From positions 124,001 through 188,000 of the forward strand of contig OW569348.1 in assembly GCA_937625935.1 (NCBI GenBank): 64,000 nucleotides of DNA, in the 5' to 3' direction. Every line of letters starts with the position of its first letter. Position 1 is the first letter of the stretch. Origin of the DNA: Tetramitus jugosus (lineage: Eukaryota; Protista; Heterolobosea). Below the pieces are notes generated by a model, which was not told the DNA's origin, made no database searches, and worked only from the letters and a program-made list of their open reading frames with translations. A program made the translations under genes and the position numbers. This document shows, piece after piece, positions 13,645-57,979 of this stretch.

Positions 13645-16600
13645 ATGACTACCACAACACCATCTTTTAAGCATATTGTTTGGATTGTTTGTTTGGTTGC
13701 CTTTGCTGTGCTCTTTCCCCATACTGAGAGTATTTCTTTCGGTACAGTATTCACGATTGATGACAACGTGACACATCAAGTCACTAGTATCAAGGTACGC
13801 AACTCTCTCGAAAGCTATGCAACTTTCAAAACTGACAATCCAAGTGCCACATTATTGTCCAATTCACTTGGTTCTATCACTGTCTCTTCAGCAGGAAGGA
13901 CAATTGTCGCAAAGTTTGACTCGTTGAAACAACAAGGGTATCACTGGGCCACAGGAATAGACTCTGGAGTGCTATCCTATGTTCCATATCTGTTACCGTC
14001 GTGTGACAATCAAAGTATAATTATCGTTTTCCCAAACTGTACTGGAAGTTTTCCGCAGTTTGGTGTTAGTGATGCTCAGGGTGTTTATGCAGTGATTGCA
14101 AAGTATGATTCTCAGGGTAGGAATGTCTGGTTCAAGTTCATTTCTCAATCGAGTACATACTCAGGTGATGTCATGGTGTCCAATGCACACATTTCGTGTG
14201 ATAGCGGTGTAGATTCTGTCTTCTTGGTAGGCCCACTGAATAACGCTCAGTTGGCGTTCGATTGTCCTTCGAAGAATCAACAAGCTGATGTCAGTGCCTA
14301 CGTAGCCAAATTCAATCAAACAGGCGATTGTGTTTGGGCATCTGCTTGGACAAATTCTACTGTGACAGCCGTCTCATCAGATTCTCAATACATCTTTGTG
14401 GCAGGAGCTTTCATAGGAGAGGCACACTTTAAGAACTCGTATTTCACTCAAAAAAATACGAGTTTGAATGACATTTACATGTTTAATGTGAACAAGATCA
14501 GTGGAGCATTTATTCGTGGAACTCAGATCTCTGCTTTTTATTCAGGATCTGTCCTCGAAGTAGTTTCTGCAGATGCTAATTCATTCTATATGGCTACCAA
14601 TCTACTTTGGAGAATTGGGGACTTACCAACGATTTTACTATTGAAAGGCTCCAAAACTGGTCCTTCATTAGCCTGGAGCGAATTTGTCTTGTCTCCATCA
14701 GATTACATTTCCTTTGTCGCCTCTGATATGGAGACGACAAAGGATGGATCTATTCTTTTGACGGGATGGTGCAATGGAAATGGTACAATTAATGGTACCT
14801 TTTCCACTATTTGTGGAACAGGATCTCAAACTGGTTTCGTTGCCAGGTATGACTCAGATGGAAATGGTGTGGAGATTTTAACAGTTGTAAATTACTCTGC
14901 TGCAACTGGTATTGCACTCTCTGTCGGATCTGACAACTATGTGCTGGCAATGGGGCACAGCGAAGCTCCTTCTACTATCGGAAGTGGGCAGAGAAACTTT
15001 ACTGGCACCAACAAGTTTAATTTTGTCGTCGAACTGTTGGAAGGTCCTTCCATTTATTGTTATGGAACCAACAAGTATGAACCATCTGTTTGTAGTGGAA
15101 ATGGTAATTGTGGAGCTACTGATACTTGTACTTGTAAATACGGATACATTGACGATGACTGCTCACAGTTGGCCTGTTACAATATCTCATCTGGAGATGC
15201 GAATGTATGTTCGGTACATGGTCAATGTAATGGTCCTGATTTGTGTTTGTGCGATTCTGGGTATGCTGGTCGAGAATGTGAGCTTTATCAGGATCCTTTT
15301 ACTTTTGAAGTACCTAGTAATGGCAGTGGAACTATTTCTTCTTGCATGGTGCCTTACTACTCTCCAAAGTTCATCCCAGGTATCATTGTTACAAATTTTA
15401 CTTGGTTTTTCATCCAAGACGGTGCTATTTCTGAGAAAATTACATACTTGTCCTTACCTCAAGATTATTCACCTACACACTCGAATGTTCACCATGGGAC
15501 GTACCAGGTAGTAGGCGAGTTGTATTATCAGCTCTCAGGAGTTACAGTGTATCGTAATGCTTCCGTACTTGGTCGTGCAGATTGTTCAATTTGCTTCGCT
15601 TTCAATGCTTCTAATTGTCGATATCGCTTCGCATTGAGCGACAGTACTTTGAGCAACAGCATCACTAACGGTTCTACGACGTCGATTAATCGAATGAAAA
15701 GCTATGGATTGATATTAGACAGTGAGGATCTTGCCACCAATAATGAGATTGCAGGTTTACAGTTGGATTGGGAGACCTCAATTCAATCACAAGAGACGAA
15801 CATCAGAGTAGTATCTTCAAATTCTTCATTTATCATTTCTCCCCTTGATTCCATGGGAATGAGTCCCATTGACATCAATATCACCCTACAATTGAAGATA
15901 CCCTACTTGGAGTGGCAGGTGATGTCATTCACCTTGAAGATTCTAGCGTCAAAAGACATCTCCCCCCAAGGAGTTACTCCATTGATCATTACACCACATG
16001 AGGGCTACAGTCTGAAAGATCGCTTTAACTTTCAGGCAGTAAATTGGCTCTATAGTGGATTGATATACTCATTTTCTTATCAGGATCCCTTTACTCGAGA
16101 CTATGTGAGATTTGGGGAATCAAGATCACCATTCATCAATGCTGGTCTCCCTCCTGTCTTCACCAATTCTGTTCTATCGATACGTCTTAAAGTTTTCAAT
16201 CCAGACAATGGAGACTATGGGTCAGCCGAACAACAGATTACTGTTAAGCCCTCTTTTGTTGCTGGACTCTTATCGCAGAAGTTAGATGAATCGATTGCAA
16301 CTGACGATTATACAACGACACTAGCCATAGCTAGTCATATTCGAGGGGCAACTCCGCAAGAGATTGAAGCCAATACTAGTGAGATGAAGGATATTATTCA
16401 CAGAGTTTTAGAATATACAGCCACAAGGGTTGTACTGGATTCCGTATCGATCGAACAGCAACTCATAGTTGTTGATATGGTAACGACGAATGAACTGCTC
16501 ATATCTAATCAAGATAAGGGAACTGCTCTAAATATTGCTTCAAAAATCATCGATATTGATCTTACAAACTCGTCGATCTCATACGTGTCAAGCAGCGGAT

Positions 16601-18684
16601 ATCAAAGAATTACGAATATTATTTCAAACATCGCTGTTGGTGGTTTTACGAACAAGACTGTGGCACAGCAAGCTGTACAAACAGGAGAAAACCTGGCCAA
16701 GTTGATTGCATCAAGATTGGTCGTAGGTGAGTCTCCCGCAAACTTCATCGCTTCAGATTTCAAGGTGACTGTGGTTGTTGGTAGGATGTCACGTATCGCG
16801 AATACGACCATCCAAACGAATGGAAGCACAATTGATTCATTTTATATTCCGTCTCAATTTGCAACTAATGTGAATTCAGATACTGTATCATCCTCAATCT
16901 TAGTTTTTCAAAACAATCCCTATGAGAATCAATCAAATGGTTCTTTTGCGGGAGGAGTCTCGAGTCCTGTAATAGATATTAAGTTTAACAGCTTGGATGG
17001 CTCTTTGCTTGTAGTAGCCAATTTGACTCAACCCCTACTCATCAATTTTAATAGGAGCAAAGCAAAACAACAAGGAGCTTGTCCTGAGGCTACCTTCCAA
17101 TGCCGATATTGGAGTGCGTTAGAACACAAGTGGAAAACAGATGGCTGTTACTGGATAGGAAATGAGAGCGACGAATTCATATCCTGTGCCTGCAACCATA
17201 CAACCAGTTTTTCAGCTTTTGTCCTCGAGAAGGGTGATTCTTGTGTGGTTTACGCAGGTATCAAGATGACAGATATTATCTTCAACTCCATATATCTTCT
17301 CGCATGTGTACCTATTTTGATTGGGCTATTCATAACTCACAAACAGCAACCTATGAGATCCAGATACATTGCACCCTTCCTTGGGATGATTGCCATCATT
17401 GTTGATAGTGTTGTTCAGGGCTTGATTCGTAACTCACTATCATTGGCACAAAAGAGGGATGCATCAGACGTGTTCTCATATGTCATCATGTTGACTGCCA
17501 ATCCATTGTTTGTGACAGCATTGTTTGTTTTCTTGTGGCAACAAGTAAGGTTTCTATTGCTGCAAAACATTTATTACTTGATGCCATCAGCAAACAATTC
17601 ATCCCAAAAGAACTTTATTCGTTTGAATCGAGTACTCGCATCAAAGGAATTGTTTGTGATAGTGACCGTCTTCGTTGGATCATTGGTGCTTTCTTGCTTC
17701 GCTGTATTTGTGGGCTTTGCTGCTCACTACAATAACACAGGAGCTACGGAGAAAAGGAATACTGTAGTAATTGCCCAAGCGGTCGTATTTGCTGCACTAT
17801 TGTTCATTGTGTCCATAGGAATACTCATTACACTCACTATCGATGTCGTCTTCTCAGTCAAACAAGAATCAGCTCCTAAGAGGGCATTGGACTATCATAC
17901 ACACAATCAGCAAGTTCATATCAAGAGAGCGAAAGGATTAAGCCTTATTAAGAATCATTTCCGCAGTGATCCATTACTATTCAGAACTGAAGCAGTCATG
18001 ATCTTGGTCACTGTGTTCCTACTTATTGTTCTTTATTCGATTGGAATTGCAACCATTGTTCAAAATTCCAAAGCAATGTCGCCAATTATGATTGTTCGAA
18101 CCATTTGTGAGATTCTATTCATGTTCGCGAGGATACTTGCATTTGGAGGATACATCTTGATGGTCAGTATTGGGAATGTGATAAGAGGAAGGAGGTTGAC
18201 TACAGAACACCAGCAATTATCATCTGCAACACTGACCAAAGAAACGATTCAAGATCAAATGGTGCTCGATGTTCTGAGACATTCTTCAGGTTATCACCTC
18301 GTGTTTGACTTTTGTCGAAAGGAATTCTCCCTGGAGAATCTTTTATTGTGGAGAGAGCTCGAAACAATCCGTGCCACTAATCTTCTGATGACCATTGAGG
18401 AGAGGAGAAAATCTTTGACAGATATTCAAGGTATGTACATCGATAACAACAGCGAGAGACAATTGAACATCTCCAATCAACGCAAAAAAGTGTTCCTCCA
18501 GGTTTCAAACATGTCAGAACCTTCGGCTGCCGACGCTGAAGAAGCTTTTGCCCACTTGTATGGTGCTTGCGTGATGAACATCGCGGACACCATGACTCGA
18601 CTCAGAAGTACCGAAGCGTTCCGGGTTTATGACCTAGCAAAGAACACATCGATGGAGTTGCGAAAGGGCTGCTTCGCAGGCTAA
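13645..18684 (+). CDS. Adhesion-GPCR-like receptor: signal peptide, beta-rich repeats, EGF-like repeats, GAIN/GPS, 7TM, C-terminal RGS domain
   Basis: Signal peptide; EGF repeats CSGNGNC..CTCKYGY; GPS CRYW..WKTDGC..CACNHTTSF; seven hydrophobic segments; RGS signature FDFCRKEFSLENLLLW..YIDNNSERQLNIS. Confidence 0.9.
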   Translation: MTTTTPSFKHIVWIVCLVAFAVLFPHTESISFGTVFTIDDNVTHQVTSIKVRNSLESYATFKTDNPSATLLSNSLGSITVSSAGRTIVAKFDSLKQQGYHWATGIDSGVLSYVPYLLPSCDNQSIIIVFPNCTGSFPQFGVSDAQGVYAVIAKYDSQGRNVWFKFISQSSTYSGDVMVSNAHISCDSGVDSVFLVGPLNNAQLAFDCPSKNQQADVSAYVAKFNQTGDCVWASAWTNSTVTAVSSDSQYIFVAGAFIGEAHFKNSYFTQKNTSLNDIYMFNVNKISGAFIRGTQISAFYSGSVLEVVSADANSFYMATNLLWRIGDLPTILLLKGSKTGPSLAWSEFVLSPSDYISFVASDMETTKDGSILLTGWCNGNGTINGTFSTICGTGSQTGFVARYDSDGNGVEILTVVNYSAATGIALSVGSDNYVLAMGHSEAPSTIGSGQRNFTGTNKFNFVVELLEGPSIYCYGTNKYEPSVCSGNGNCGATDTCTCKYGYIDDDCSQLACYNISSGDANVCSVHGQCNGPDLCLCDSGYAGRECELYQDPFTFEVPSNGSGTISSCMVPYYSPKFIPGIIVTNFTWFFIQDGAISEKITYLSLPQDYSPTHSNVHHGTYQVVGELYYQLSGVTVYRNASVLGRADCSICFAFNASNCRYRFALSDSTLSNSITNGSTTSINRMKSYGLILDSEDLATNNEIAGLQLDWETSIQSQETNIRVVSSNSSFIISPLDSMGMSPIDINITLQLKIPYLEWQVMSFTLKILASKDISPQGVTPLIITPHEGYSLKDRFNFQAVNWLYSGLIYSFSYQDPFTRDYVRFGESRSPFINAGLPPVFTNSVLSIRLKVFNPDNGDYGSAEQQITVKPSFVAGLLSQKLDESIATDDYTTTLAIASHIRGATPQEIEANTSEMKDIIHRVLEYTATRVVLDSVSIEQQLIVVDMVTTNELLISNQDKGTALNIASKIIDIDLTNSSISYVSSSGYQRITNIISNIAVGGFTNKTVAQQAVQTGENLAKLIASRLVVGESPANFIASDFKVTVVVGRMSRIANTTIQTNGSTIDSFYIPSQFATNVNSDTVSSSILVFQNNPYENQSNGSFAGGVSSPVIDIKFNSLDGSLLVVANLTQPLLINFNRSKAKQQGACPEATFQCRYWSALEHKWKTDGCYWIGNESDEFISCACNHTTSFSAFVLEKGDSCVVYAGIKMTDIIFNSIYLLACVPILIGLFITHKQQPMRSRYIAPFLGMIAIIVDSVVQGLIRNSLSLAQKRDASDVFSYVIMLTANPLFVTALFVFLWQQVRFLLLQNIYYLMPSANNSSQKNFIRLNRVLASKELFVIVTVFVGSLVLSCFAVFVGFAAHYNNTGATEKRNTVVIAQAVVFAALLFIVSIGILITLTIDVVFSVKQESAPKRALDYHTHNQQVHIKRAKGLSLIKNHFRSDPLLFRTEAVMILVTVFLLIVLYSIGIATIVQNSKAMSPIMIVRTICEILFMFARILAFGGYILMVSIGNVIRGRRLTTEHQQLSSATLTKETIQDQMVLDVLRHSSGYHLVFDFCRKEFSLENLLLWRELETIRATNLLMTIEERRKSLTDIQGMYIDNNSERQLNISNQRKKVFLQVSNMSEPSAADAEEAFAHLYGACVMNIADTMTRLRSTEAFRVYDLAKNTSMELRKGCFAG

Positions 18685-19367
18685 CCAGACGACTCGGATG
18701 TTCTCAATAAACCAATAATACAGCGAACATCTAAAACCCAATCCAACAACCTGAAATCCGTTCCCTTCAAAGGTGGTACTTTAAATACGTAAATTAAAAT
18801 AAATAGAGTGTAATATGAATTATTCGACAGTAGTTCAGAAATTGTAGTTTATTAATAAATTTCAAGTTTATAACGATCACATATTTTATTCGAATCTATA
18901 ATGCTCAATTAAGTATGGATGTAAATTTATTGAATTAATTATTGATCTTCACATGGTATGACTTGACAACATGTTCGTGACATACTTATTTACGAGTTTC
19001 TGCTGAATTGTGAAACGCTCTCGCCTAACAACAATATTTCAGTCTCCGAGTTTCAATCGGCTCTCTCTACATACCTCATGCTATTGCTGTTGTGAGGTTC
19101 ATGCTCAAGTGAATTGCATACGAAACCCTTTATGTCACAATGTATGTCACAATGGAGTAGGATTGGGTGAGCCACATTGACATAAAGTGTTTCATATGGG
19201 ATCTGCTCGCGTCACAAACATTACAACAGCAATAGCAAAACAGAGCGAAACTCAAAATTTCGAGTTAGGAATTTATGATATGACGGGTGAAGGATGCGTC
19301 AACTTTTGACAGGCACAAACAAACGATATTTGGCGACAAAAAAACAAACAAGAAAAAACAGAGAGGT

Positions 19368-22300
19368 ATGGCATCATCATCATCATCCTCTGGTGGTGTA
19401 GGTTGGAATAAGCTTAATAAACAAGCAACAGTTGTTTTCTCTAGACCCAGTTATGGCAAACATCAATTGTCATTGAACGAGGGATCCAAGATTCAAATCA
19501 TTGGTGAATCATCCAATCAGAGTGGATGGTACAAGGTCAAATACAATAATAATCAAATTGGAATCTATCCTTCCAATTATGTAAAGATTGAAGACAACAA
19601 CAATAACAATAGTTCAGCACTGGTTGTTGATTCATTGGAGAGAATTGAAAAGCAAGACAAGGAAAAGTACAGGAGGGCACTGGAGAGAAGAGCACCGACT
19701 GCTCTTGAACTCATGCACTGTTCCTCTCAGAATGCACTGGCCAATGAAATTCTTCAAGTGTTGAGAGAATGGAGCATCGAATTGAACAAGTTGAAGAATG
19801 ACAAGAGCACGAGACAAGAGTTTTTAAATGTCAAGAGACAAATGGCTACACTGGTGGGTCTCCGCAAACAAATTATTCAATTGGAATTGTCCAATTATCA
19901 TCATCATCATCATCATCAGAATAACAACAACAATAACACCAATAATAACAACAACAACAACAGTCATATGAATGTCAATAGTATCAGTGGTGTCAACAAT
20001 ATTCATCATGCCAAACTAAAGGAACTATCAGACAAGGTCATCTCTGTCATAGAAGAAGGTAGTCGTCAATTGAATCTCGATCTCATTGTCAGAGTAGAAT
20101 CAGATGGCAGTAGTAGTAGTAGTACCAACAACAACAACAATTCTACTACTACTTCTACTACTACTACCAGTGCTACTGCTACAAGTGCAAATAACAACAA
20201 TACATCTGCTGCAAGCAGTGACAATAAGAAGAAGAATAGAGGACAGCGTGCTCATGAAGACAATACACCAATTGTTGACTTGTATAGACAGTATCAACAG
20301 ACTCAGAGAAGAGAAATGGAAGTGAGATTGAGAAGACAATTGGAACAGACGTTGCTTCAATACCAACAACAATCCAATAACAGTATGATTACTACTGCTG
20401 CTACTGCTACTGCTACTGCTACGAACAACAACAATCACCCATATCATAATCATAATAACAATAACAATAACAACAATAATAACAACAATCAAGTCATGAA
20501 CAACACGAGTGCATCCAGTTTAGAAGACAAGAGAACAGCACTCATTAGACGTGTCATCAAGAATTATGATCCAACAGATAGAGTCCAACGTGTCAAACAC
20601 ATGTATCAACTACCAGAGAATCACAATTCCAACAACAACAATAGTGTCGCATTCCTGTTGGATGTCAAGGCTTGTTTGTTCACCATGGGTGAACCAACTG
20701 AACTCTACTTTTCACTGTACAATGCTCAATCGAGAGAATTCATTACGGAAGAGTACATGGTCGAGTTGACGGCACTCGGTATGCCAAAGGACGAACGACT
20801 CATTCAAAACATTCGATGCATGTTCACTGACATTAGTGAATATCATTACACGAGTGATTTGCACATGATTTGTCGCATCTATCGTAAGGGTAAGATGACA
20901 TTGGATGAGAAGGCAATTGTCAGCAGCTCTGAACTCATCAAAAAGTCCAAAATGTCCTCATCTTCTTCATCATCATCATCATCTGATCCAAACAATATCG
21001 ATGTGGACGATGTAGAAGAAGAAACATTCTATAGGAGACCGTTTGCATGCGCTGTATTGCCACTCACTCCTCCCATCATTTCTCAATTCTTGATGGAGGG
21101 CAAAGAGTTTGCTCCAGGTAATCTCGCACTGTACTATGCCACCAATGAACAACAGTTTGCAAAGTTGCACGAATTGATTATTCATGACGCACAGTACAAC
21201 AATTATCACTCGAGTGGTGCTCATTCGGGTAGTGGTACTGGTGGTGATGGCATGGGTGTCGGTGGAGGCATGGGTGGTGATGACAGTGGTGGTGGTGGTG
21301 GTGCAATGGGTGGTGGTGGCACAGGTGGTGGTGGTATGATGGGTGGTGATGCGGGTGGCAATGATGGCATGGGTGGAGGTACAGGTGGTGCTGACGGAAC
21401 AGACTACAACGATTTCCATTCTCATCACTTTTCACACACCATGGGTGGTTATGAAAAGTTGCCTCATTCGAGAGCCATTGGTATCGCTGTTGGCATTACC
21501 ATGTATCACGGTAAGACAACCGCTCAGATTATTGATACGACTCCACAGCTCAAACCAGGCAAGACTGTGTGTCTCGTTCGACCACTGCACTTCCCACAAG
21601 TCATCTCACCAGACGAGAGAAGAAACACTCTGTACATTACATTGGCCAACAGTCAATTGAACGATGGAAAGAATGTCAAGGTATCATGCCGTGTCATTCT
21701 CAAGTCATCTGCTGCTGCTTCTTCAGACGCTGGTGGTCCATCAACAGTGCGCTGCATTAGAAGATATGCTGGCTTGCACAAGGAACCCACTCACTTTTAT
21801 CACAGTGCAGTGTACTACCATGTTCACAATCCGTGCTTTAATGAGACATTGTGCATCGATTTGTCTCCCAGTCAATTGGAAGACGCCGTGCTTGTCTTCC
21901 TGTTCTCCAACTGTAACAACACAAAGCAGAAATCGGATCGATTTGCAGTGGGATTCCTGGACGTTGTGGATGCCAACTCTGGTGTCATTATACCCAACGC
22001 ACGTGACACTCGAATCGAACTGTACAAGTACTCGGCCAAGGACATGGACAAGAATTTGGTGCTGTATGCCAAGGATGTGGCCGCACGTAAGAAATTGACT
22101 GCACTCTCTGCATCGAGCAACTATTTGAGCATTGGCACTCGATTGGTGTCCACTCGTTGCACACAGGACATTCACTTGAACCAATTGTTAAAGTACAGTC
22201 AACAGAAGCAACAGATTCCTCTGGAAGCTCTGTTGAATCAATTCTCCTATGTGAGTATGCAAGATGTGGTCAAGTACATTCGTGATACAGCAGATGCCCT

Positions 22301-25300
22301 GTTTGGCATCTTGATCTCGCGCAACGATGAGAAGGCTGCCGAGTTGGTGTTTGCATCACTGTTGAGAATTATTGATGCGTTGAGCAACAAGAACTTTGCC
22401 CACTTCCGTCGCAGCTTGGACGAATACGTGGACAAGTACTTCAATTTCCCACAACCACAGATACACAAGTGGTTCTTGCACTGCTTGATTCACAATTTGA
22501 CATGGGATGAGAGTGATAAGAGAAAGGCAAAGCTCGTCTCACAGACACTGAGAGCCTTCCACTACATGTTCCGTTTCATTGTCGCTTCCAGAAGCAAGTG
22601 TGAGAGACAACTGGCTGTCAACAACAACAACAATAGCAGTAGCAACAACAACAACTTTGGTGATATGATGAGTTCGAGCGAGTACATGTCTCAGACTGAA
22701 TTGGTGTTCTCCTTGTTGAACAAGGTGATTGCCATCCAGAACAACACATCGCTCATTGCTGCTCAGGATCTCATGCTCAAGTTCATTGGACCACTGTTTG
22801 AAGTCATGAGTGACATTTTCCCCAGTGGTGGCAATTATATTCTACTGGGTAGAATCACTCGTCAATTCATGCAATCCATTCCAGATACCGGCAGATCCAA
22901 CACAACAGAGGGTAAGCTCTTTATTGCCAGTTGTGTCGCCAGTGGTAACATGCTGATGAGAGGTGAACCCAGAATTGAACTCATGAGCTACTTGATTGGC
23001 ATCATCAAGCATCACATGAACCGAACGAACACGGAGAGAAGAATGAGTGTCAAAGTGTTGGCCAACATTGTGGGCACGCTGCAGAGAATTCTGATTGAAG
23101 ATTCTGACAATCCACACCAAAAGGAAAACACTTCCAATTCACTCTCTGTTCAAACCAGTGTGCTCAACATGTTTGAATTGTTGCCAGTAATCCACATGGC
23201 GCTCAGTGAACTAAAGAAGCAATCTCTGGAAGCAAAGAACAGAATTGTCATGAACAACAGTTCCAACGGATCTCAACTCAGCACTGCCAATAGCAACAAC
23301 AATACGAACAACAATGCCAATAACAATAACAAGATGGGCGCAAATAATGGCTCTGCTGCATCGCCAGTACCCGCTACTGCCATTGCCGCTGCTGCACCTC
23401 CTTCTCCTACGACACCAACTGCTGCCAACCCAGCATCCAATCGTAGTGGATCACTGAATGATGATGAATCGTTCGAATTGAATGAAGAGTTGCAAAAGAT
23501 TGAAGAATTGAGAGGAGAGTTGACATCGACCATATTGGCCATGTTCTACGTCATGGACTACAACATGCTGTCCACAGTGTTGTCATCATCCACGTCAGAC
23601 AAATCACAGTCCATTGAGCAAATGTTTGACATTTTGCAAGATGTGATCGAGTACTCACCCATTCCAGAGTATTGGATTGCGTTCAATGTGTTCTGCTACC
23701 ATACCATCTATCGTCACTTCCAACACATTGTTTCCTACATGCAGACTCACTTTTTGCCCAACAAGACATTCCAATATCCATTGTGGAACCGTGCACTGAG
23801 CCTAGCAATCAGCTTTGCACGAACAAAGTTCCTCCAAGTGCAAGGCTATTCACTGTCCAAGCAGACAAAGATTCTCGTGCATGGAGACATGAGAGCTCTC
23901 ATGGTCAAACAGTTGAGAGAACTGTGGGAGTCGTACACTGCTGAACAACAAATGAACTTTGTGCCACACTTGTTGGACCCAATGTTGCGATTGGCTGCCA
24001 CTATTCCCAAGAAGGAAATCAACGTTGATGCACTCAACATTTACTATCGCATCCTCCAGTTGGAGTACCAGTCGACCAAACAGTTGCGACAGTGTCAAGG
24101 TATCACTGGTAGCATCCTGGATGAATACATTGTCAAGGACCAAATCGATAGCACATTCAAGCACTTCTTTGAACAAGTGTTGGCAGAAAAGTTCCAATCG
24201 GATGAGTCACTCCGTGTCGAAGGAACCAAATTCCTGGACAATACGAAGATGTTGATCGATTTGATTGCTGCCGTGCAAAAGTACAATGATGATCAAGAGG
24301 ATCAGAAGACAACTAGTTTGATCAAGGTGATGCAATATGTGGCCACATCGGATCAACAAGAAATCTACTTCAAGTACGTTCATGCATTGGCTGATGTTCA
24401 CTTGCACAATGAGAATTATGTGGAAGCAGCGTTGGCACTCATGCTTCACGCGGATCATCTCTCCTTCCAATCTACCAACGTGCTACCACCGATTGGCTCA
24501 CTGTTTCCTCAGGAGAAGGAGCGTGATCGTAAGATTGGTCTCTACATGAAGGCCCTCGAGTACTTTGATAAGGGCAAGGACTGGGAGAGAGCCATCCAAT
24601 TGTCTCGCGTCTTGGCACCACTGTTCGAGAAGGAGACATTCGAGTATGACAAGTTGGCAGAGATGCTACGACTACAGGGAGAATTGTTCCTCAAGATTGC
24701 CACACAAAAGAGACTGTACGCCAGTTATTTCTATGTGGCATACTATGGAAAGTCATTCCAGGAGATGGGACTCCGAAACAAGGAATTCATCTACAAGGGA
24801 TTCGAAGCCGAACGTCTCATGGACTTTGTGGAACGTATCATGAAACGGTTCCCCAATGCTGAAATGTTGAAACCAATGGAACCAGTGTCCGAAGAGAAGA
24901 TGAACGGTGAGGGTCAGTACATTCAGATCATGACCGTCTATTCCTCGTGCTTTGCCGATATTCACAGCCGTTGTGCACCACGACCAAGAAATGAACTCGT
25001 GAGTCAGAACATTGCTGCCTATGACATTTTGAACAACAATGTGCGCGTGTTCATGTACAGTAAGACATTCTTACAAAAGAATGCCAACGAAGGCAAACCT
25101 GCCAACGACTTCCGCTGCATGCACACCAATTTCACCTTTTTGGAGATTGGAGAGGAGAATGAGAATACAAAGAACGTGTTCAATCCCAATCAATTCCCAT
25201 CCATTGTCAGACGAAAGCCAATTCTGAAGAAGACGGAAGTGTTGTTGACACCGGTGGAGAATGCAGTCAAGAACATTTTGGACAGAAATAGTGAATTGAT

Positions 25301-25679
25301 GGAGTTGGTCATTTCTCATCGATTGGACAAGAAACCTGACACTGGTAAGTTGAGTATGTCATTGAACGGTATTATTGATGCTGCTGTGAACGGTGGTGTC
25401 AACAAGTATGTCGATGCCTTCTTCTGCGCCGAGTACGTGCAAGAGAATCCAAAACTGTTGCCACTGCTTCAAAAATTGCAAAAGAGTTTGGAAGAGCAGT
25501 TGGTTGCGTTGAATCTGGGACTGGAGATGTATCATCGATATGGTAGTGCACAGACAAGAGCACACGTGGAGCACTTGTACTCGTACTATGCAAACATGAA
25601 GGATCAGTTGAGCTCTGTCACCACAAAGGATCTCTCCTACTTTTTGACCGATGAATACAAGAAGAATCCTACACAGTAA
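19368..25679 (+). CDS. DOCK: DOCK180-type Rac GEF (SH3, DHR1/C2, DHR2), intronless
   Basis: N-terminal SH3 (GWYKVK..GIYPSNYV), DHR1 (SAVYYHVHNPCFNE), DHR2 with nucleotide-sensor LNGIIDAAVNGG. First ATG at 19368. Confidence 0.95.
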   Translation: MASSSSSSGGVGWNKLNKQATVVFSRPSYGKHQLSLNEGSKIQIIGESSNQSGWYKVKYNNNQIGIYPSNYVKIEDNNNNNSSALVVDSLERIEKQDKEKYRRALERRAPTALELMHCSSQNALANEILQVLREWSIELNKLKNDKSTRQEFLNVKRQMATLVGLRKQIIQLELSNYHHHHHHQNNNNNNTNNNNNNNSHMNVNSISGVNNIHHAKLKELSDKVISVIEEGSRQLNLDLIVRVESDGSSSSSTNNNNNSTTTSTTTTSATATSANNNNTSAASSDNKKKNRGQRAHEDNTPIVDLYRQYQQTQRREMEVRLRRQLEQTLLQYQQQSNNSMITTAATATATATNNNNHPYHNHNNNNNNNNNNNNQVMNNTSASSLEDKRTALIRRVIKNYDPTDRVQRVKHMYQLPENHNSNNNNSVAFLLDVKACLFTMGEPTELYFSLYNAQSREFITEEYMVELTALGMPKDERLIQNIRCMFTDISEYHYTSDLHMICRIYRKGKMTLDEKAIVSSSELIKKSKMSSSSSSSSSSDPNNIDVDDVEEETFYRRPFACAVLPLTPPIISQFLMEGKEFAPGNLALYYATNEQQFAKLHELIIHDAQYNNYHSSGAHSGSGTGGDGMGVGGGMGGDDSGGGGGAMGGGGTGGGGMMGGDAGGNDGMGGGTGGADGTDYNDFHSHHFSHTMGGYEKLPHSRAIGIAVGITMYHGKTTAQIIDTTPQLKPGKTVCLVRPLHFPQVISPDERRNTLYITLANSQLNDGKNVKVSCRVILKSSAAASSDAGGPSTVRCIRRYAGLHKEPTHFYHSAVYYHVHNPCFNETLCIDLSPSQLEDAVLVFLFSNCNNTKQKSDRFAVGFLDVVDANSGVIIPNARDTRIELYKYSAKDMDKNLVLYAKDVAARKKLTALSASSNYLSIGTRLVSTRCTQDIHLNQLLKYSQQKQQIPLEALLNQFSYVSMQDVVKYIRDTADALFGILISRNDEKAAELVFASLLRIIDALSNKNFAHFRRSLDEYVDKYFNFPQPQIHKWFLHCLIHNLTWDESDKRKAKLVSQTLRAFHYMFRFIVASRSKCERQLAVNNNNNSSSNNNNFGDMMSSSEYMSQTELVFSLLNKVIAIQNNTSLIAAQDLMLKFIGPLFEVMSDIFPSGGNYILLGRITRQFMQSIPDTGRSNTTEGKLFIASCVASGNMLMRGEPRIELMSYLIGIIKHHMNRTNTERRMSVKVLANIVGTLQRILIEDSDNPHQKENTSNSLSVQTSVLNMFELLPVIHMALSELKKQSLEAKNRIVMNNSSNGSQLSTANSNNNTNNNANNNNKMGANNGSAASPVPATAIAAAAPPSPTTPTAANPASNRSGSLNDDESFELNEELQKIEELRGELTSTILAMFYVMDYNMLSTVLSSSTSDKSQSIEQMFDILQDVIEYSPIPEYWIAFNVFCYHTIYRHFQHIVSYMQTHFLPNKTFQYPLWNRALSLAISFARTKFLQVQGYSLSKQTKILVHGDMRALMVKQLRELWESYTAEQQMNFVPHLLDPMLRLAATIPKKEINVDALNIYYRILQLEYQSTKQLRQCQGITGSILDEYIVKDQIDSTFKHFFEQVLAEKFQSDESLRVEGTKFLDNTKMLIDLIAAVQKYNDDQEDQKTTSLIKVMQYVATSDQQEIYFKYVHALADVHLHNENYVEAALALMLHADHLSFQSTNVLPPIGSLFPQEKERDRKIGLYMKALEYFDKGKDWERAIQLSRVLAPLFEKETFEYDKLAEMLRLQGELFLKIATQKRLYASYFYVAYYGKSFQEMGLRNKEFIYKGFEAERLMDFVERIMKRFPNAEMLKPMEPVSEEKMNGEGQYIQIMTVYSSCFADIHSRCAPRPRNELVSQNIAAYDILNNNVRVFMYSKTFLQKNANEGKPANDFRCMHTNFTFLEIGEENENTKNVFNPNQFPSIVRRKPILKKTEVLLTPVENAVKNILDRNSELMELVISHRLDKKPDTGKLSMSLNGIIDAAVNGGVNKYVDAFFCAEYVQENPKLLPLLQKLQKSLEEQLVALNLGLEMYHRYGSAQTRAHVEHLYSYYANMKDQLSSVTTKDLSYFLTDEYKKNPTQ

Positions 25680-27567: not shown

Positions 27568-28433
27568 TGATTATCGTTATCATCATCGAAAGAAACAACA
27601 TGAAGACACAGTTCAGAATGAAAAAAATTTTGAGCGGCGAAACGAAGCAAGATAACTGATTGCATTCAACCAACAGGTGCGTTGGGAGATGCCAGCCAAT
27701 GCTACACTTATCGCATTCGTGGGCACCGCTTCTTGGGTTGTTTTTTTCCATACAACAGTTCTTGCGTCCTCGAAGTTTCAATTCGCAGAGCGTCATTGCT
27801 TTTTGTCTTCCTTGTAGGAGATGAAGATTTCATGAAGGGTCTGTTTATGATGGATAAAACAACAAGATCTGCCAAGTGTAAATAATGAGAAGAGCTTTAC
27901 TAGGGATCCCTCTTGTCAGATTACATTGACTGACCTAAGTTCTAAGCTAACTACAAGTGGTGTTACCATTAGCTCTATTTTAGGATCACTCAGAATTGAG
28001 AGTCGCTGATTTTTGGGTAAGGGCTGCCTCAGTCTCCACCCAGCTTGCCAAGTTCTTTCTCGACAGTCCTCTCCGCGACAGAGTAAATATATATCTTGTA
28101 TAGTGCCTTGATGCACGACCTCTTGATTGAGTCAATGACTCTCCTTATCTTTTTCTCTGTTTCACTTCTCTTTCTTACCAGAGAGCTTCATTGTTCTCTG
28201 GTAAGAAGGAACATTTTGCGATCATCGTACACCACATTGTCAAAACAGAGATTGAGCTTTGCTGGTCTCATGAACCAGTTTGCCAATGCAATTTCCTTTT
28301 CCACTCTAGCGAACACTGGAGAAGTGGCGTTCACTTGCTCCAGGATTTGCCGGCGTTGTTGGGTTTGTTTTTTTTTTAATACAACAAATGGTGCTCACGC
28401 ACCACGTTGCGGAACTTTTATTTTTCTTTTGCG

Positions 28434-28457
28434 TGAGAGCAGGCTTGCCTGCTCTCA
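28434..28457 (-). other. Perfect hairpin in the retroelement 3' UTR
   Basis: TGAGAGCAGGC-TT-GCCTGCTCTCA, an 11-bp inverted repeat, identical at 57739-57762. Confidence 0.85.
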
Positions 28458-28500
28458 ATTGTCTAACATGATGTGATGCTTGCCCAGTGGAGTGGCAGGC

Positions 28501-29187
28501 CTACGCAACAGGATTCATTCTCTTCTTGGAATGTTGTTTTGATCCCTTCTTCAGGGATTCGTTGCGAGGGCCTCCACTACCATCTGGAGCACCACTGGTG
28601 AGGTCAGATGGCTCTGTAGTCCTAGCCAGTTGGTAGGACCTACGGAGAGCACCTGACTTGATACTGGCCAACCTGGCCGGGATCTTGTTGGCAGCAGTGT
28701 CACCAACGGTGACACGTGCTGATCGCTTCTTGTGTTCGTTGAGTTGGGGACTCTGTAACTCACAGTCGGGGTTACTGAGATCCAACTCAACTGGATCTTC
28801 TTCGGTGGTTGTGCTTCTTGCACGGTCCACCATGATTGCTCGGGCAGCAATCTCTTTCTTGACTTTCTTGAACACCTGGGAGGTGTTCAATACTAGCTCG
28901 AGGATTGCTCTGTTACGAGCATCCTCATCAATGGTGTTGTTGGTTGGCTCTTGGGTGACCGTAGTTGGAGTGGCGGGATGGGACTCCGGCATGATCGACC
29001 CAGTCATCGGTTCGTAGACGGAGTCGAAGGTTCGAATTCGGGGATTCGCTCCGGCGTCCTTGGAGACGGGGATGCGAGGGGAATCCGGTTGACGGAAGCC
29101 ATACACTGACTTGGTGGCGCAGGTCGTCCACCACAGCCAGTAGCTCTTGGTACATCTTGGTCAGCCTCTTGCTGACAGCCTGGACCA
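28501..29187 (-). pseudogene. 3'-terminal ORF fragment of the retroelement (probable frameshift near 29107); no RT or endonuclease motif visible
   Basis: 201-codon open frame 28501..29106, preceded in another frame by VQAVSKRLTKMYQELLAVVDDLRHQV, which is cut at the TSD. Confidence 0.6.
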
Positions 29188-29241
29188 GCCGGCGTTGTTG
29201 GGATCTTGGGTTGTATATGTCTGAATGATTTACAACAACAA

Positions 29242-29312
29242 TCGGTCGTGGTATAGGGGTAGCATTCCAGACTGTCACTCTGGCGACCCGGGTTCGATTC
29301 CCGGTGATCGAG
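29242..29312 (+). tRNA. trnD-GTC: tRNA-Asp (GTC)
   Basis: Acceptor TCGGTCG/TGATCGA plus G discriminator; anticodon arm CCAGA-CTGTCAC-TCTGG; T arm CCGGG-TTCGATT-CCCGG; TTTT terminator at 29315. Confidence 0.96.
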
Positions 29313-42785: not shown

Positions 42786-45700
42786 TCACTGACTACGAGA
42801 TGCATTACGGCTTGTGTCAACGCTGAAAGATCTAATATGAGTTCGTCTCTTTGCTGATGTCGGGGATAGACCGATTGTTGACGGTGTGTCAATAACCTCA
42901 TTGATTACATCCTCCGATAAGTTCAGGGGGTGCTCTTCTCTAGGAATCACGACATCCGCGAATCTCGTTGTAGCCACCTTCATTTTGGATGAAACACAGT
43001 TCATTACGTCGTACAATCGTTTATGATTTCCAACCACATAGAACCTATCTTCGGAGCATAATACTGTATTTGTCTCTGGATGTGTATACACGTATTCCAA
43101 CCGATTAGAATTACCGAGCACATGTTTTGGACGATACAAACCAAGACATATAGAGTCGTGCCTGTAGAAAAATAAAAAGGCATCATGGAATGTTTTGCCT
43201 GCGAGTTCTTCAGGACAAGAGATTTGGAAAATGGATGATTGATCTTTGGCCAACAGACCAGAGAATCCACAGATAACTTCGATCGTACCAACAATCCTCG
43301 AGTTATAGTAAGTCTGGCAGAGTAGTCGAGCAAAAATGGAGTTTGGAAAAACTCTACCACTCGAAAACACTTCAGATATCATACACATTCTTTCAAATCT
43401 CTCAGTTTCATCATCCACAATAGCTTCACTGGTTACGGAGTCTAGCACATTAATATATTTTGAGAACCTTTCTCCGGTATATGCTGTCGACGGCTTAAAG
43501 AATTTGATATTACTCTTGTTGCTAATCTCACATAAATATCGCGTCTTCTTTTCAATCCACCTTAAACCTAACATACACTTGACAGCCTCTGAATCCTCAG
43601 GCAAGCCATCTTCGGAGAAGTCTGATAAATAAAGAACACAACTTGCATCAGCAGCTCCAGCTTTTCTTAAATCATATCGCTCTGTTGGAGAGCCTTGCAT
43701 AAAGTATACGTGATCGAAGAATTTCAACCTCTCGTACAAGAATGGAAGCAGGTTTTCATCTGGAGATAGAAATACGATAGGTGCAAACTTTTGATGAGTA
43801 GAAGATCGTAATGTTAAGCTGATATAGGCAGATCCTTTGAGGGACCCAGTGACAATCACATGATTGGACAATTGCTGGTTCTTCAGTACGAAGTCATCCA
43901 TACTTCGCGCAACATGCAGCAGGTTAAAACTTTCCAATGCTTTTCCAAAGAATTTCTTCTCTGTATCGTCTCTAAATCCTCTCATAGTATTGGGTAGTGC
44001 ACCAGAGGTTGTCTTGTTTTTCGCTCCAAAAAAGTTCTTCACGTCAGCAATTGGAGCAATGTGTCGAAGTAAGCGATTCACTTGCCTTTGATTGATCATA
44101 TCATTCGCGATTTTTGATCGAGTTGTGGATGCCTCTTTCCCAGATAAGTCCTCCATACTCCTGTCATGCCTTATCATTCTCGATTTTCTCTTGTCGACGT
44201 CACCTGGCTCCTCACGGCATAACTCAAACTCATTTTGTTCGTTATAAAAGAAATAATCGTCCTCTTCGACCTTACCCTTCTCTCTATCATCATCGAGGGT
44301 GTTAATGTTGGCACTTGCGACATAGGGACCAGAATGTTTGTGAATCGCAGTAACATCAAAAGATGTTCTTTCTGGCTCTTGTATGTTCACAATCTTGTCA
44401 CACTTGTACAGATTAATCAGTTGAGCCTGGAATATACTCTCAGCTATTACAATAGCTTGATCACCTTCTTTGATCAAATAGTCAGACGGATTCATTAGTA
44501 CACATTTCTTTTCTTCAGAAAAGACTGCGAAGAGAATCATTTCCAGCTCTTGATAAGCGCTGAGTGAAGCGTCCAGAAACAGTGTATCAACAAAGTAGGG
44601 CGAGAAAACCACCATATAAATTTCCTTTGAGGTACCAGCAAAGTATTCATACATCCACCGATCTGACTCTTCAGCTTGTTTGTGCTTCAATTTTCGTTCA
44701 AAGATCTGCATTGGGTTGCGTACAGCAACAGATGTCACCAGATTGGACACTAGGGTACACAAGCCAGGACAAACCACAGACAAAGCCATCAGTTTTTGTT
44801 TCAAATCCTCAGTACACACAACAGAGGATGCACCTGCTTGAACAATAAAGTTTTTGCTTTCGGGCAGAATAGCTTGTGCGAAAACATCGAGCTTGGGATT
44901 AAAGTTTTTCACAGCCAGAGTTATCATCAGTGTATTTGTGTCTTCAAGACGCGGATTTGCTGAATTATGTTTTGTTAGGACGAAGACACCTAGTGCATTA
45001 TGAGCTTTCACTAGTGTTAATGTTTCAAAGTCCACGATATCACCATTATAAACACTGACACGAGTTGAGTAATATGGATTATCGGCCATACTCTGTAAAT
45101 GATCACAGAGCTCCTTATCGCGAAACACAAACAGTAGTTTCTTTGGCTTTATCTTTCCATGTTGCTCGTGGAAGAATTCTTTTGTGAATTCGACAACTTC
45201 TGCATATCTACTCGTACCTGTCACAATCATATGATTCTTCAATTTCATATTTAACCATTTGAAAACATTTTCTTTTGCTGTCACAATATTAAAGATCTGA
45301 GTGGTCTGATAGGGAATAACAATGACACCAATGACGAAAAACAAAATGACACAGGCTTTTCCATATATGCTCTTGGGGGATATGTCTCCATATCCAATTG
45401 TTGTCATTGTCACCCATATAAAGTACACTGCATCATGGAAATACAAATTCTGACTCGTAAAATAGTTTTCCACAGTTTGAATCAAGCTCGCAAACAAGAA
45501 GATCAAGCTCAACAATGTCAACACCAGAATAAATACTTGTCTGTACACGTTACGCATGCCATACACGGGATATGCCTTCACAACGAGCAACAACCGCAGC
45601 AATCTAAACACTCTGAACACACCAATCACCGTCGTAATATAATTCTTGGGCATGGAGAAAATGAGCACATACATGAGAATAATGGGCAACACGGTCACAT

Positions 45701-46472
45701 AGTCCAAATAGGAATAAGGGTTCAGTATGAGAAATTTTAGCTTTCTCTTTGCCATTATTAAATGGCCCATAAATATAATCGTAATGAATCCACACAGTGA
45801 TAAATCAATCACTGCCAATGCCAAAATGTGTTGCATCTTGAGCATGGCCAAATAACTCTCCACAATATAAATAAGAGTAAATAGAACAGCAATCAACGCT
45901 TGAAAAATCTCCAAGTCCCTCATGTAACCATGCTTCTTCAAATAGAGCACAAATCGTTCCTTGTGCGAAATTCTCATATTGTCTGGAATTTTTGACTTGG
46001 GAAGCTTATTGTCCTCCACGTATGCATTCAACACTGCATTGTCATAGATGAGCGATGAAGGGTCCCATGGGAACAATCGCTTTTTAATGTTGAGCTTCCG
46101 GAATCGTTGGAATTTCTTTTTTTTGGCACTGCTGTTCAGCACATCACTGTTCATTGTTGTCATGTTTTGACGACTGGCGGCATTATGACTATTCTTGTTG
46201 CTAAATGAGGATGATTGTCTGCTGGAGAAGGCTTCGTCTTCTTCTCTTGACAAGTGGGTGCCATGTCGATGATGCAGCATGTGTCCAGCAGAGTCACTGC
46301 TGTCACTGTTGTCACTCGGAGTTTGATCATTACGGCTGTATTGGCCAATGTGGCTATTATTGTTGTTGTTGTTGTTGGCTGCCATTTGAATCTCATTGAT
46401 CGCAATGATCGTAGGAGAGTAGTCATTGTCGGTGAATGGACTCACCAAATGACTGGAGGAAGGAGAAGACAT
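42786..46472 (-). CDS. Slo/BK-family potassium channel alpha subunit (6TM plus two RCK domains)
   Basis: S4 RVFRLLRL, filter TMTTIGYGD, RCK1 HMIVTG, CPGLCTLVSNL and RCK2 HVIVTG/GSP. Confidence 0.93.
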   Translation of the reverse strand: MSSPSSSHLVSPFTDNDYSPTIIAINEIQMAANNNNNNNSHIGQYSRNDQTPSDNSDSSDSAGHMLHHRHGTHLSREEDEAFSSRQSSSFSNKNSHNAASRQNMTTMNSDVLNSSAKKKKFQRFRKLNIKKRLFPWDPSSLIYDNAVLNAYVEDNKLPKSKIPDNMRISHKERFVLYLKKHGYMRDLEIFQALIAVLFTLIYIVESYLAMLKMQHILALAVIDLSLCGFITIIFMGHLIMAKRKLKFLILNPYSYLDYVTVLPIILMYVLIFSMPKNYITTVIGVFRVFRLLRLLLVVKAYPVYGMRNVYRQVFILVLTLLSLIFLFASLIQTVENYFTSQNLYFHDAVYFIWVTMTTIGYGDISPKSIYGKACVILFFVIGVIVIPYQTTQIFNIVTAKENVFKWLNMKLKNHMIVTGTSRYAEVVEFTKEFFHEQHGKIKPKKLLFVFRDKELCDHLQSMADNPYYSTRVSVYNGDIVDFETLTLVKAHNALGVFVLTKHNSANPRLEDTNTLMITLAVKNFNPKLDVFAQAILPESKNFIVQAGASSVVCTEDLKQKLMALSVVCPGLCTLVSNLVTSVAVRNPMQIFERKLKHKQAEESDRWMYEYFAGTSKEIYMVVFSPYFVDTLFLDASLSAYQELEMILFAVFSEEKKCVLMNPSDYLIKEGDQAIVIAESIFQAQLINLYKCDKIVNIQEPERTSFDVTAIHKHSGPYVASANINTLDDDREKGKVEEDDYFFYNEQNEFELCREEPGDVDKRKSRMIRHDRSMEDLSGKEASTTRSKIANDMINQRQVNRLLRHIAPIADVKNFFGAKNKTTSGALPNTMRGFRDDTEKKFFGKALESFNLLHVARSMDDFVLKNQQLSNHVIVTGSLKGSAYISLTLRSSTHQKFAPIVFLSPDENLLPFLYERLKFFDHVYFMQGSPTERYDLRKAGAADASCVLYLSDFSEDGLPEDSEAVKCMLGLRWIEKKTRYLCEISNKSNIKFFKPSTAYTGERFSKYINVLDSVTSEAIVDDETERFERMCMISEVFSSGRVFPNSIFARLLCQTYYNSRIVGTIEVICGFSGLLAKDQSSIFQISCPEELAGKTFHDAFLFFYRHDSICLGLYRPKHVLGNSNRLEYVYTHPETNTVLCSEDRFYVVGNHKRLYDVMNCVSSKMKVATTRFADVVIPREEHPLNLSEDVINEVIDTPSTIGLSPTSAKRRTHIRSFSVDTSRNASRSQ

Positions 46473-57380: not shown

Positions 57381-57683
57381 GATTGTTGAAGGTCTGTTCT
57401 GTTCTGTTCTGTTCTGGGTGGTGGTGTGTTTTTGGGTGGATAAAGGGAATTTGTGGTGATGGAGGTTTTGATTCTTTTTCGCCGAACATCTTCTCCCCAA
57501 ACAAAAGTTCGAAGCGGCAGTTGGAAAGCGAAAAAATCTGACAGGATTTGCTTGTTGGAAAAAACAAACAGATAAACATGCCGAAACACAAGACCCAACA
57601 TATGACAACACCAACAACTCTCACAACTCTCACAACAGTGCTCCGTGGTGTGCCATCAGCCTTTTAACAAACACCGATGAAAA

Positions 57684-57850
57684 TTTTTTTTTTTTAATAC
57701 AACAAATGGTGCTCACGAACTTTTATTTTTCTTTTGTGTGAGAGCAGGCTTGCCTGCTCTCAATTGTCTAACATGATGTGGTGCTTGCCAGTGGAGTGGC
57801 AGGCCTACGCAACAGGATTCATTCTCTTCTTGGAATGTTGTTTTGATCCC
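57684..57850 (-). mobile_element. Severely 5'-truncated copy (167 bp) of the same poly(A) retroelement, 55 bp upstream of tRNA-Met
   Basis: Perfect 17-bp TSD ACAAACACCGATGAAAA at 57667-57683 and 57851-57867; T12 tail. Matches 28368-28546 except for a 13-nt indel, a 1-nt indel and 2 substitutions. Confidence 0.92.
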
Positions 57851-57905
57851 ACAAACACCGATGAAAAAAGCAGTAGGTCTCTAATTTTCAGATGATAAAT
57901 ATAGA

Positions 57906-57979
57906 GCGGGTTTGGCGCAGCTGGTAGTCGCGTAGGTCTCATAATCCTAAGGTCGTGAGTTCGATCCTCACAACCCGCA
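57906..57979 (+). tRNA. trnM-CAT: tRNA-Met (CAT), elongator type
   Basis: Acceptor GCGGGTT/AACCCGC plus A; anticodon arm TAGGT-CTCATAA-TCCTA with the T31:T39 pair typical of eukaryotic elongator Met; TTCGATC T-loop; T5 terminator at 57985. Confidence 0.96.

What the first reader, a model, noticed from the sequence alone, without database searches (positions are those of the whole stretch)
57667..57905. Target sites share position but no sequence, implying tethered rather than sequence-specific integration
Seen: in element orientation the two TSDs begin CCCAAC... and TTTTCA..., unrelated to each other and unlike the L1 TT/AAAA consensus. Their tRNA-proximal edges, the inferred first-strand nicks, fall 39 and 38 nt from two different tRNA isotypes. 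Established: TFIIIB occupies roughly the 40-45 bp upstream of tRNA genes. Inference: the endonuclease is positioned by the Pol III pre-initiation complex at the upstream edge of TFIIIB.
Basis: partly seen in the sequence, partly recalled or inferred. Interest (0 to 1): 0.75.

Follow-up and report, generated by a model that had tools for sequence, protein, structure and literature searches.

The report
Amoeba retroposons stack upstream of tRNAs
Short A-tailed jumping-gene copies whose only gene is a predicted RNA-binding protein sit 38 and 39 bases in front of both tRNA genes in this stretch of an amoeba genome, likely of the Naegleria group, at unrelated sequences, so they are likely steered there by the tRNA transcription machinery, a habit that the papers I could search describe for such elements only in social amoebae.

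Summary
Two copies of one poly(A) element, with perfect 15- and 17-nt target duplications, lie head-to-head 39 and 38 nt upstream of tRNA-Asp and tRNA-Met. The targets share 5 of 40 bases at the nick, against 10.5 by chance. An older copy sits at the same Asp site. A metagenome contig shows a further copy about 45 nt from a tRNA 5' half. Flanks of other copies agree only at chance level.

The elements encode no endonuclease or reverse transcriptase, only an ORF1 predicted as two RRMs plus a long helix. No autonomous partner was found. The host's closest named relatives are Willaertia, Naegleria and Acrasis.

It works like Dictyostelium TRE5-A.2, but TRE5 membership is not shown. TFIIIB tethering is inferred, and the first nick probably falls inside the TFIIIB footprint, not at its upstream edge. 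Only three tRNA-linked loci could be read. The scan has noted TRE5-like LINEs before in yeasts and other fungi, not in this lineage.

The parts
57667..57683 (.). Distal copy of the 17-nt target-site duplication, tRNA-Met locus
   Evidence: junction with the T-run also in two public runs
57684..57850 (-). 5'-truncated family A element (167 nt): last codons of ORF1, 3' UTR, 12-nt A tail (T-run 57684-57695)
57739..57762 (-). Perfect 10-bp hairpin in the 3' UTR; predicted, possibly the handle for the borrowed reverse transcriptase
   Evidence: whole 127-nt end: z -1.79, 9 of 200 shuffles as stable
57851..57867 (.). Proximal copy of the 17-nt TSD; its right edge is the inferred first nick
57868..57905 (.). 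38-nt gap between TSD and tRNA-Met
57906..57979 (+). tRNA-Met(CAT) gene
27722..27737 (.). Putative decayed distal TSD of the older element, in register with the start of the 15-nt TSD
   Evidence: 0.6% of 9,141 sampled 16-mers align as well
27738..28353 (-). Older element: 65 nt of family B ORF1, about 540 nt of unassigned sequence, B-like 3' terminus and A-rich tail
28349..28363 (.). Distal copy of the 15-nt TSD, tRNA-Asp locus; overlaps the older element's 5' end by 5 nt
28364..29187 (-). 5'-truncated family A element (824 nt): frame-broken 3' half of ORF1, 3' UTR, A-rich tail
   Evidence: 94.5% to the full-length copy in L001
29188..29202 (.). Proximal copy of the 15-nt TSD; its right edge is the inferred first nick
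29203..29241 (.). 39-nt gap between TSD and tRNA-Asp
29242..29312 (+). tRNA-Asp(GTC) gene

Best explanation
These are non-autonomous, ORF1-only poly(A) retroposons that sit head-to-head at a fixed distance upstream of tRNA genes at unrelated sequences, and they are likely placed there because their predicted RNA-binding ORF1 protein would dock on TFIIIB, holding a borrowed endonuclease/reverse transcriptase at that spot. Shown: tails, TSDs, 5' truncation, orientation, distances, unrelated targets, stacking, and a single ORF per full-length copy. Inferred: the RNA is coated by its own ORF1p; an ORF2 from an unseen autonomous LINE nicks the tRNA sense strand 38-39 nt before the mature tRNA and primes cDNA on the A tail without needing a T-tract; the second strand is cut 15-17 nt further out. 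Each new insertion lands at the same distance and pushes older copies away, giving head-to-tail stacks. My odds by step: distance-defined targeting about 0.9; direct tether to the Pol III apparatus about 0.75; TFIIIB through ORF1p about 0.55.
For: 2 of 2 tRNA genes in the window carry an element and 2 of 2 young copies are tRNA-adjacent. The older copy shares the Asp nick. The 1 contig found in the metagenome scan has a full-length family B copy starting about 45 nt from a tRNA 5' half, same orientation. Targets unrelated; 5 of 5 listed tail-side loose ends agree at 0.54-0.59, chance 0.54-0.57. Tandem pair with a 14-nt unrelated spacer in one contig of run X9. ORF1 model: two beta-alpha-beta-beta-alpha-beta domains plus a 36-residue helix; the 9 Foldseek hits at E <= 0.001 are tandem-RRM proteins or a spliceosome chain. 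Precedent: TRE5-A.2 lacks ORF2, borrows it, and inserts like TRE5-A.1 (PMC5391098, passages and section 16); TRE5-A ORF1 binds TBP, Brf1 and Bdp1 (PMC5911963, passages); TSDs 10-16 bp and stacking above an older copy (PMC9012585, passages).
Against: Only three tRNA-linked loci and two exact nick distances; no genome was available. The L001 tRNA is cut by the contig end and scores below threshold (19.6 bits, E 0.057), and L001 shows no TSD, so it may be joined through a collapsed repeat. Whether the other copies seen lie near tRNAs is unknown, and 66 loose-end rows were not shown. No endonuclease or RT was found. The ORF1 model is weak overall (mean pLDDT 51, pTM 0.28; best Z 8.4 is near the background range). 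ORF1 has no Pfam family at cut-off. DGLT-A and Ty1 reach tRNA flanks through TFIIIC and Pol III, not TFIIIB. Genome positions alone cannot separate targeting from selection (PMC9012585).
Confidence: 0.55

Rival explanations
1. Insertion is tethered to the Pol III apparatus, but through another contact: TFIIIC or a Pol III subunit on the host side, or the borrowed ORF2 rather than ORF1p on the element side.
For: Same positional data as the best reading. DGLT-A uses its RNase H and TFIIIC subunit Tfc4; Ty1 integrase uses Pol III subunits (PMC6101501 and PMC5911963, passages). The partner ORF2 is unknown.
Against: The cuts lie where TFIIIB, not TFIIIC, is expected to sit. At least three diverged families keep an intact ORF1 while carrying no ORF2, which fits a job done in cis by ORF1p.
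Confidence: 0.2
2. No protein tether: the endonuclease cuts where DNA is bent or exposed beside the bound initiation complex or at the edge of the nucleosome-free region.
For: TFIIIB bends DNA and creates nuclease-hypersensitive stretches (PMC11724288, passages). The sequence data cannot tell tethering from exposure.
Against: A 1-nt match of distances and a fixed orientation at 3 of 3 loci are tighter than passive exposure usually gives. No copy was found at any Pol II promoter of the 64-kb window.
Confidence: 0.15
3. Insertion is loosely random or follows a weak motif; selection in a gene-dense genome leaves survivors next to tRNA genes, and the 38/39 match is chance.
For: n is small. About 10 kb of 64 kb is non-ORF. 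Both nicks read purine/A on the nicked strand. Tail-length variation could hide a motif in the pooled flanks. The Met target shares a 12-nt word with the element's own start.
Against: The null already restricts insertions to non-ORF DNA and gives 1.4e-6. Selection does not predict a 1-nt coincidence, a fixed orientation or re-use of one nick.
Confidence: 0.1

Closest known systems
TRE5-A, especially the non-autonomous TRE5-A.2, of Dictyostelium discoideum (PMC5391098 passages and section 16; PMC5911963, PMC3159450, PMC9012585 passages)
   Same: Upstream of tRNA genes, opposite orientation, oligo(A) tail, variable TSD (10-16 bp there; 15, 17 and a likely 14 here), 5' truncation, stacking, and an ORF1-only form that borrows ORF2.
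   Different: Host is a heterolobosean, not an amoebozoan. Measured the TRE5 way (element's first base to tRNA) the distances are 54, 55 and about 45 against 47 +/- 3. No ORF2-bearing partner found. No named TRE protein among the ORF1 hits. Full-length copies are about 1.3-1.4 kb, with the ORF starting within about 25 nt of the inferred 5' end.
NLTR-B of Polysphondylium pallidum (PMC5006619 sections 9 and 11; PMC5911963 table passage)
   Same: Non-LTR element 39-64 bp upstream of tRNA genes, unrelated to TREs: a precedent for convergence on this window.
   Different: NLTR-B encodes APE, RT and RNase H; these elements encode none of them.
HAL1 (half-L1) elements (PMC5753468, passages)
   Same: Non-autonomous, encode ORF1 only.
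   Different: HAL1 derives from mammalian L1, whose ORF1 runs coiled coil, one RRM, CTD (PMC4120745, passages). Here the predicted order is RRM, RRM, long helix, with no CCHC knuckle. No tRNA targeting is mentioned for HAL1 in the passages seen.
Ty3 of Saccharomyces cerevisiae and DGLT-A of Dictyostelium (PMC5911963, PMC6101501, passages)
   Same: Position-specific insertion set by Pol III factors, not by DNA sequence.
   Different: [quoted passage not shown]

Membership tests
TRE5 (Dictyostelium) | [quoted passage not shown] | tested here: met
   54 and 55 nt in the window, about 45 nt in L001; range; 55 is 1 nt outside it
TRE5 (Dictyostelium) | Opposite orientation to the tRNA gene | tested here: met
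   3 of 3 loci
TRE5 (Dictyostelium) | Oligo(A) tail and variable TSD of 10-16 bp | tested here: met
   A-rich tails; TSDs 15 and 17 nt; range; none readable in L001
TRE5 (Dictyostelium) | Autonomous form with APE-RT-zinc-finger ORF2 that groups with TRE reverse transcriptases | tested here: inconclusive
   No ORF2 in the copies seen; none found; whole genome not available
TRE5 (Dictyostelium) | ORF1 homologous to TRE5-A ORF1 | tested here: inconclusive
   9 and 25 hits; the 19 looked up are unnamed or 'hypothetical protein'; TRE5-A ORF1 was not at hand for a direct comparison
TRE5 (Dictyostelium) | Modular 5' and 3' UTRs (A, B, C modules) | tested here: inconclusive
   ORFs in L001 start within about 25 nt of the inferred 5' ends, leaving no room for modules, but those copies may be truncated
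TRE5 (Dictyostelium) | ORF1p binds TBP, Brf1 and Bdp1; targeting needs the B box | not testable with these tools
   Host TFIIIB genes are not among the window proteins scanned and no genome was held
HAL1 (half-L1) | Encodes ORF1 only | tested here: met
   Both full-length copies in L001: one ORF, 3' UTR of about 120 nt, tail
HAL1 (half-L1) | ORF1 of L1 type II (coiled coil, single RRM, CTD; PF02994) | tested here: not met
   No PF02994 match at E <= 1; predicted order RRM, RRM, helix, from a model of modest confidence
Sequence-specific non-LTR elements (R-type and similar; features recalled) | Conserved target sequence around the nick | tested here: not met
   5 of 40 matches at the nick; pooled tail flanks at chance; small sample

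The most novel reading that the evidence does not exclude
An independent invention of tRNA-upstream targeting by non-LTR elements in Discoba, in which several ORF1-only families keep ORF1 because it is the address label: it docks on TFIIIB and redirects an endonuclease/reverse transcriptase borrowed from an unrelated LINE that does not itself target tRNA genes.
Probability: 0.2. Interest if true: 0.75.

Novelty: new variant of a known kind. Interest (0 to 1): 0.5.

Why it matters
A 2016 survey called tRNA targeting by TRE elements unique to dictyostelids and found one unrelated dictyostelid element in the same window (PMC5006619, sections 9 and 11). A case in a heterolobosean would put the same landing window in another eukaryotic supergroup, with an ORF1 of no recognised family, which points to repeated convergence on TFIIIB-bound DNA as a safe site in compact genomes. 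The elements are 1.3-1.4 kb with one gene, so they are a minimal system for asking whether ORF1 alone sets the target of a borrowed ORF2, and a possible small targeting module. The mechanism itself is the known TRE5-A model, and the scan has noted similar cases in fungi, which keeps the score moderate.

Tried and rejected
No whole genome held, so no genome-wide census. DNA pattern scans: 1 contig in metagenome contigs, 0 in viral contigs, 0 in genome contigs. ORF1 alignment scans: 267 and 600 pattern matches, 0 confirmed. L001's parent record is not held. Exact look-up of 10 window translations: 0 of 10 in the collection. The unassigned middle of the older element looked by eye like a LINE ORF2 C-terminus; a search for longer relatives gave 0 hits among 49 candidates, so this stays unproven. 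No ORF1 hit among 25 exceeded 340 aa: no sign of an ORF1-ORF2 fusion, weak evidence. Pfam on 7 ORF1 proteins: nothing at cut-off. PDB sequence search with the ORF1 profile: 9 weak matches, most over the long helix, none informative. ESM Atlas: best 0.80, RRM clusters at 0.75-0.76, leads only. No empty-site joint appeared among the joints listed (18 rows unseen), so polymorphism is untested. I looked for a TSD in L001 and found none. I ran no complex prediction, because host TFIIIB sequences were not at hand. Literature: searches gave 0 papers; by title and abstract start, none of the papers listed (20 of 47 listed; 11 of 16 listed) reports this in Discoba; PMC11702301 main text has no 'retrotranspos' match. 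Repbase entries, subscription papers and supplements were not seen.

Full report
Observation. The window holds two tRNA genes, tRNA-Asp(GTC) at 29242-29312 and tRNA-Met(CAT) at 57906-57979, both on the + strand. Upstream of each lies a copy of one repeat on the - strand, 824 nt (28364-29187) and 167 nt (57684-57850), ending in an A-rich tail and cut short at the end that faces the tRNA. Over their shared part they differ by two substitutions, a 13-nt gap and a 1-nt gap. Each is flanked by an exact direct repeat, 15 nt and 17 nt, and the tRNA-proximal edges lie 39 and 38 nt from the tRNAs. These are the only 15-mers starting in the 10,226 non-ORF bases that recur 100-1000 nt away. A search with the longer copy found no third young copy in the window. 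The distal junction at the Met site is also present without differences in contigs of runs X1 and X5, with 28 and 29 letters on the element side, just short of the tool's 31-letter bar; these runs may be related to the source of the window.

Is it more than chance? With insertions spread evenly over non-ORF bases and both orientations, the chance that both face a different tRNA within 100 nt is 5e-5, and 1.4e-6 with distances within 1 nt. The null is post hoc and ignores selection. Aligned at the inferred nick, the two rebuilt targets match at 5 of 40 bases, and at 9 to 15 in four neighbouring registers, against 10.5 +/- 2.9 for random non-ORF pairs. On the nicked strand the sites read TGGG/AT and AAAA/AA, so neither offers the T-tract that L1 uses (L1 consensus recalled).

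More sites. First, left of the Asp copy lies an older element (27738-28353): 65 nt of a second ORF1 family, about 540 nt of unassigned sequence, and a similar 3' terminus and tail. Directly after its tail is a decayed match to the same TSD, in register; 0.6% of 9,141 sampled 16-mers align as well. So one nick was probably used twice, the newer copy nearest the tRNA. This does not separate position from sequence. Second, the one contig found in the metagenome scan (L001) has two full-length copies head to tail, and the first starts about 45 nt from the 5' half of a tRNA on the opposite strand. That tRNA is cut by the contig end and scores 19.6 bits, E 0.057. L001 shows no TSD and may be joined through a collapsed repeat. 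Third, one contig of run X9 joins a truncated copy to the tail of another through 14 unrelated letters, a likely third TSD. Fourth, the five listed tail-side loose ends, each pooling 3 or 4 contigs, agree at 0.54-0.59; unrelated flanks give 0.572 for three and 0.541 for four. X5 and X9 are one sample, 66 rows were not shown, varying tail length could blur a motif, and the distance of those copies to tRNAs is unknown. One element contig has depth 896 against 15 for the junction contig in X5, which suggests many copies but is not a count.

What the element encodes. The full-length copies in L001 carry one ORF each, 382 and 413 aa, then about 120 nt of UTR and the tail. There is no reverse transcriptase or endonuclease frame. 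Relatives form at least three families 45-71% identical, with more distant forms near 29%. Near-full-length ORF1s sit on contigs of about 1.2-3.1 kb. Pfam gives nothing at cut-off. The AlphaFold2 model is weak overall (mean pLDDT 51) but shows two beta-alpha-beta-beta-alpha-beta domains at 34-105 and 114-175 and a helix at 183-218. The nine Foldseek hits at E <= 0.001 are tandem-RRM proteins or a spliceosome chain, and the wide structural search is led by RRM proteins, best Z 8.4 with rmsd 11.6 over 127 residues, and Z 8.1 with rmsd 3.4 over 99. RRMs and coiled coils are typical ORF1 modules, but this order fits neither type I (RRM plus CCHC) nor type II (coiled coil, RRM, CTD) (PMC4120745, passages). 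I found no autonomous partner; without the genome this is weak evidence of absence.

Host. The best named hits of the window's lysyl-tRNA synthetase are Willaertia magna (858 bits, 57%), Naegleria lovaniensis (822, 55%) and Acrasis kona (753); the next hit with an organism name scores 693. This one-gene test points to a heterolobosean distinct from those species and agrees with two earlier scan notes.

Mechanism. Shown: tails, TSDs, truncation, orientation, distance, unrelated targets, stacking, a single ORF. Inferred: target-primed reverse transcription by a borrowed ORF2, first nick on the tRNA sense strand at -38/-39, second cut 15-17 nt further out. A fixed distance without a motif calls for a ruler bound to the gene. 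I favour ORF1p docking on TFIIIB (0.55), because TRE5-A ORF1 does this and because several families keep ORF1 intact without ORF2. Rivals are another Pol III contact (0.2), passive DNA exposure (0.15) and selection or a weak motif (0.1). The transcription start lies about 10 bp before the mature tRNA (PMC5911963, table footnote), so the first nick is about -28/-29 from the start, probably inside the TFIIIB footprint (about 40 bp upstream of the start, recalled; -40 to +5 is cited for the yeast 5S gene). The far edge of the TSD, about -44/-45, is the one near the upstream edge. Start sites in this amoeba are unknown.

Comparison. TRE5-A inserts 47 +/- 3 bp upstream in 80.2% of 1,003 mapped events, range 23-181 (PMC5391098, passages), measured from the element's first base (PMC3159450, passage). 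Measured that way the values here are 54, 55 and about 45. TRE5-A TSDs are 10-16 bp and new copies stack above old ones (PMC9012585, passages). TRE5-A.2 lacks ORF2 and borrows it. So this works like TRE5-A.2. Membership of the TRE5 family is not shown: the RT cannot be placed and ORF1 homology is untested. NLTR-B shows that an unrelated element can converge on the same window (PMC5006619, sections 9 and 11).

Novelty. Five paper searches, judged by listing, and a term search in one amoeba-genome paper showed no report of tRNA-targeted non-LTR elements in Discoba. Repbase, subscription journals and supplements were not seen. The scan's own notes hold six TRE5-like cases in yeasts and other fungi (unchecked AI notes) and none for this element or lineage.

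Verdict. This is a new variant of a known kind: TRE5-like position-specific insertion by ORF1-only retroposons in a probable heterolobosean. Interest 0.5.

Noticed in passing
window 57858-57869: The Met target, read on the + strand, shares a 12-nt word with the start-codon region of the family A element in L001, in the opposite orientation to the inserted copy. 1 of 172 non-ORF 55-nt windows matches the element this well. Chance, or a relic of an inverted 5' end; unexplained.
   Followed up: partly
window 27748-28287: Unassigned middle of the older element, fused to a family B ORF1 piece at 28288. The junction is present in run X1. By eye it resembles a decayed LINE ORF2 C-terminus; no relative found. 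The best lead to the missing partner.
   Followed up: partly
window 57739-57762 and 28434-28458: Perfect 10-bp hairpin in the family A 3' UTR, kept in both copies and in L001.
   Followed up: partly
proteins P0037 and P0046: These gene calls begin with a read-through of an element's 3' end and A tail running into another copy, which hints at more head-to-tail stacks.
   Followed up: no
proteins P0006, P0008, P0010: NCBI-sourced gene models join pieces of a third ORF1 family to unrelated sequence: probably mis-called genes across insertions, possibly exapted pieces.
   Followed up: no
window 28364-29187: The element is held by public runs from rhizosphere, bioreactor, freshwater and groundwater metagenomes (14 of 24 listed runs hold half or more of its words). 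In X2, X3 and X4 the element was laid but its window flanks were largely not.
   Followed up: partly
window 13645-18684: A 1679-aa ORF combines EGF repeats, a GPS motif and a C-terminal RGS domain: an adhesion-GPCR-like receptor fused to RGS.
   Followed up: no
window 42786-46472 and 19287-25679: Long uninterrupted ORFs for a BK/Slo-type potassium channel and a DOCK exchange factor.
   Followed up: no
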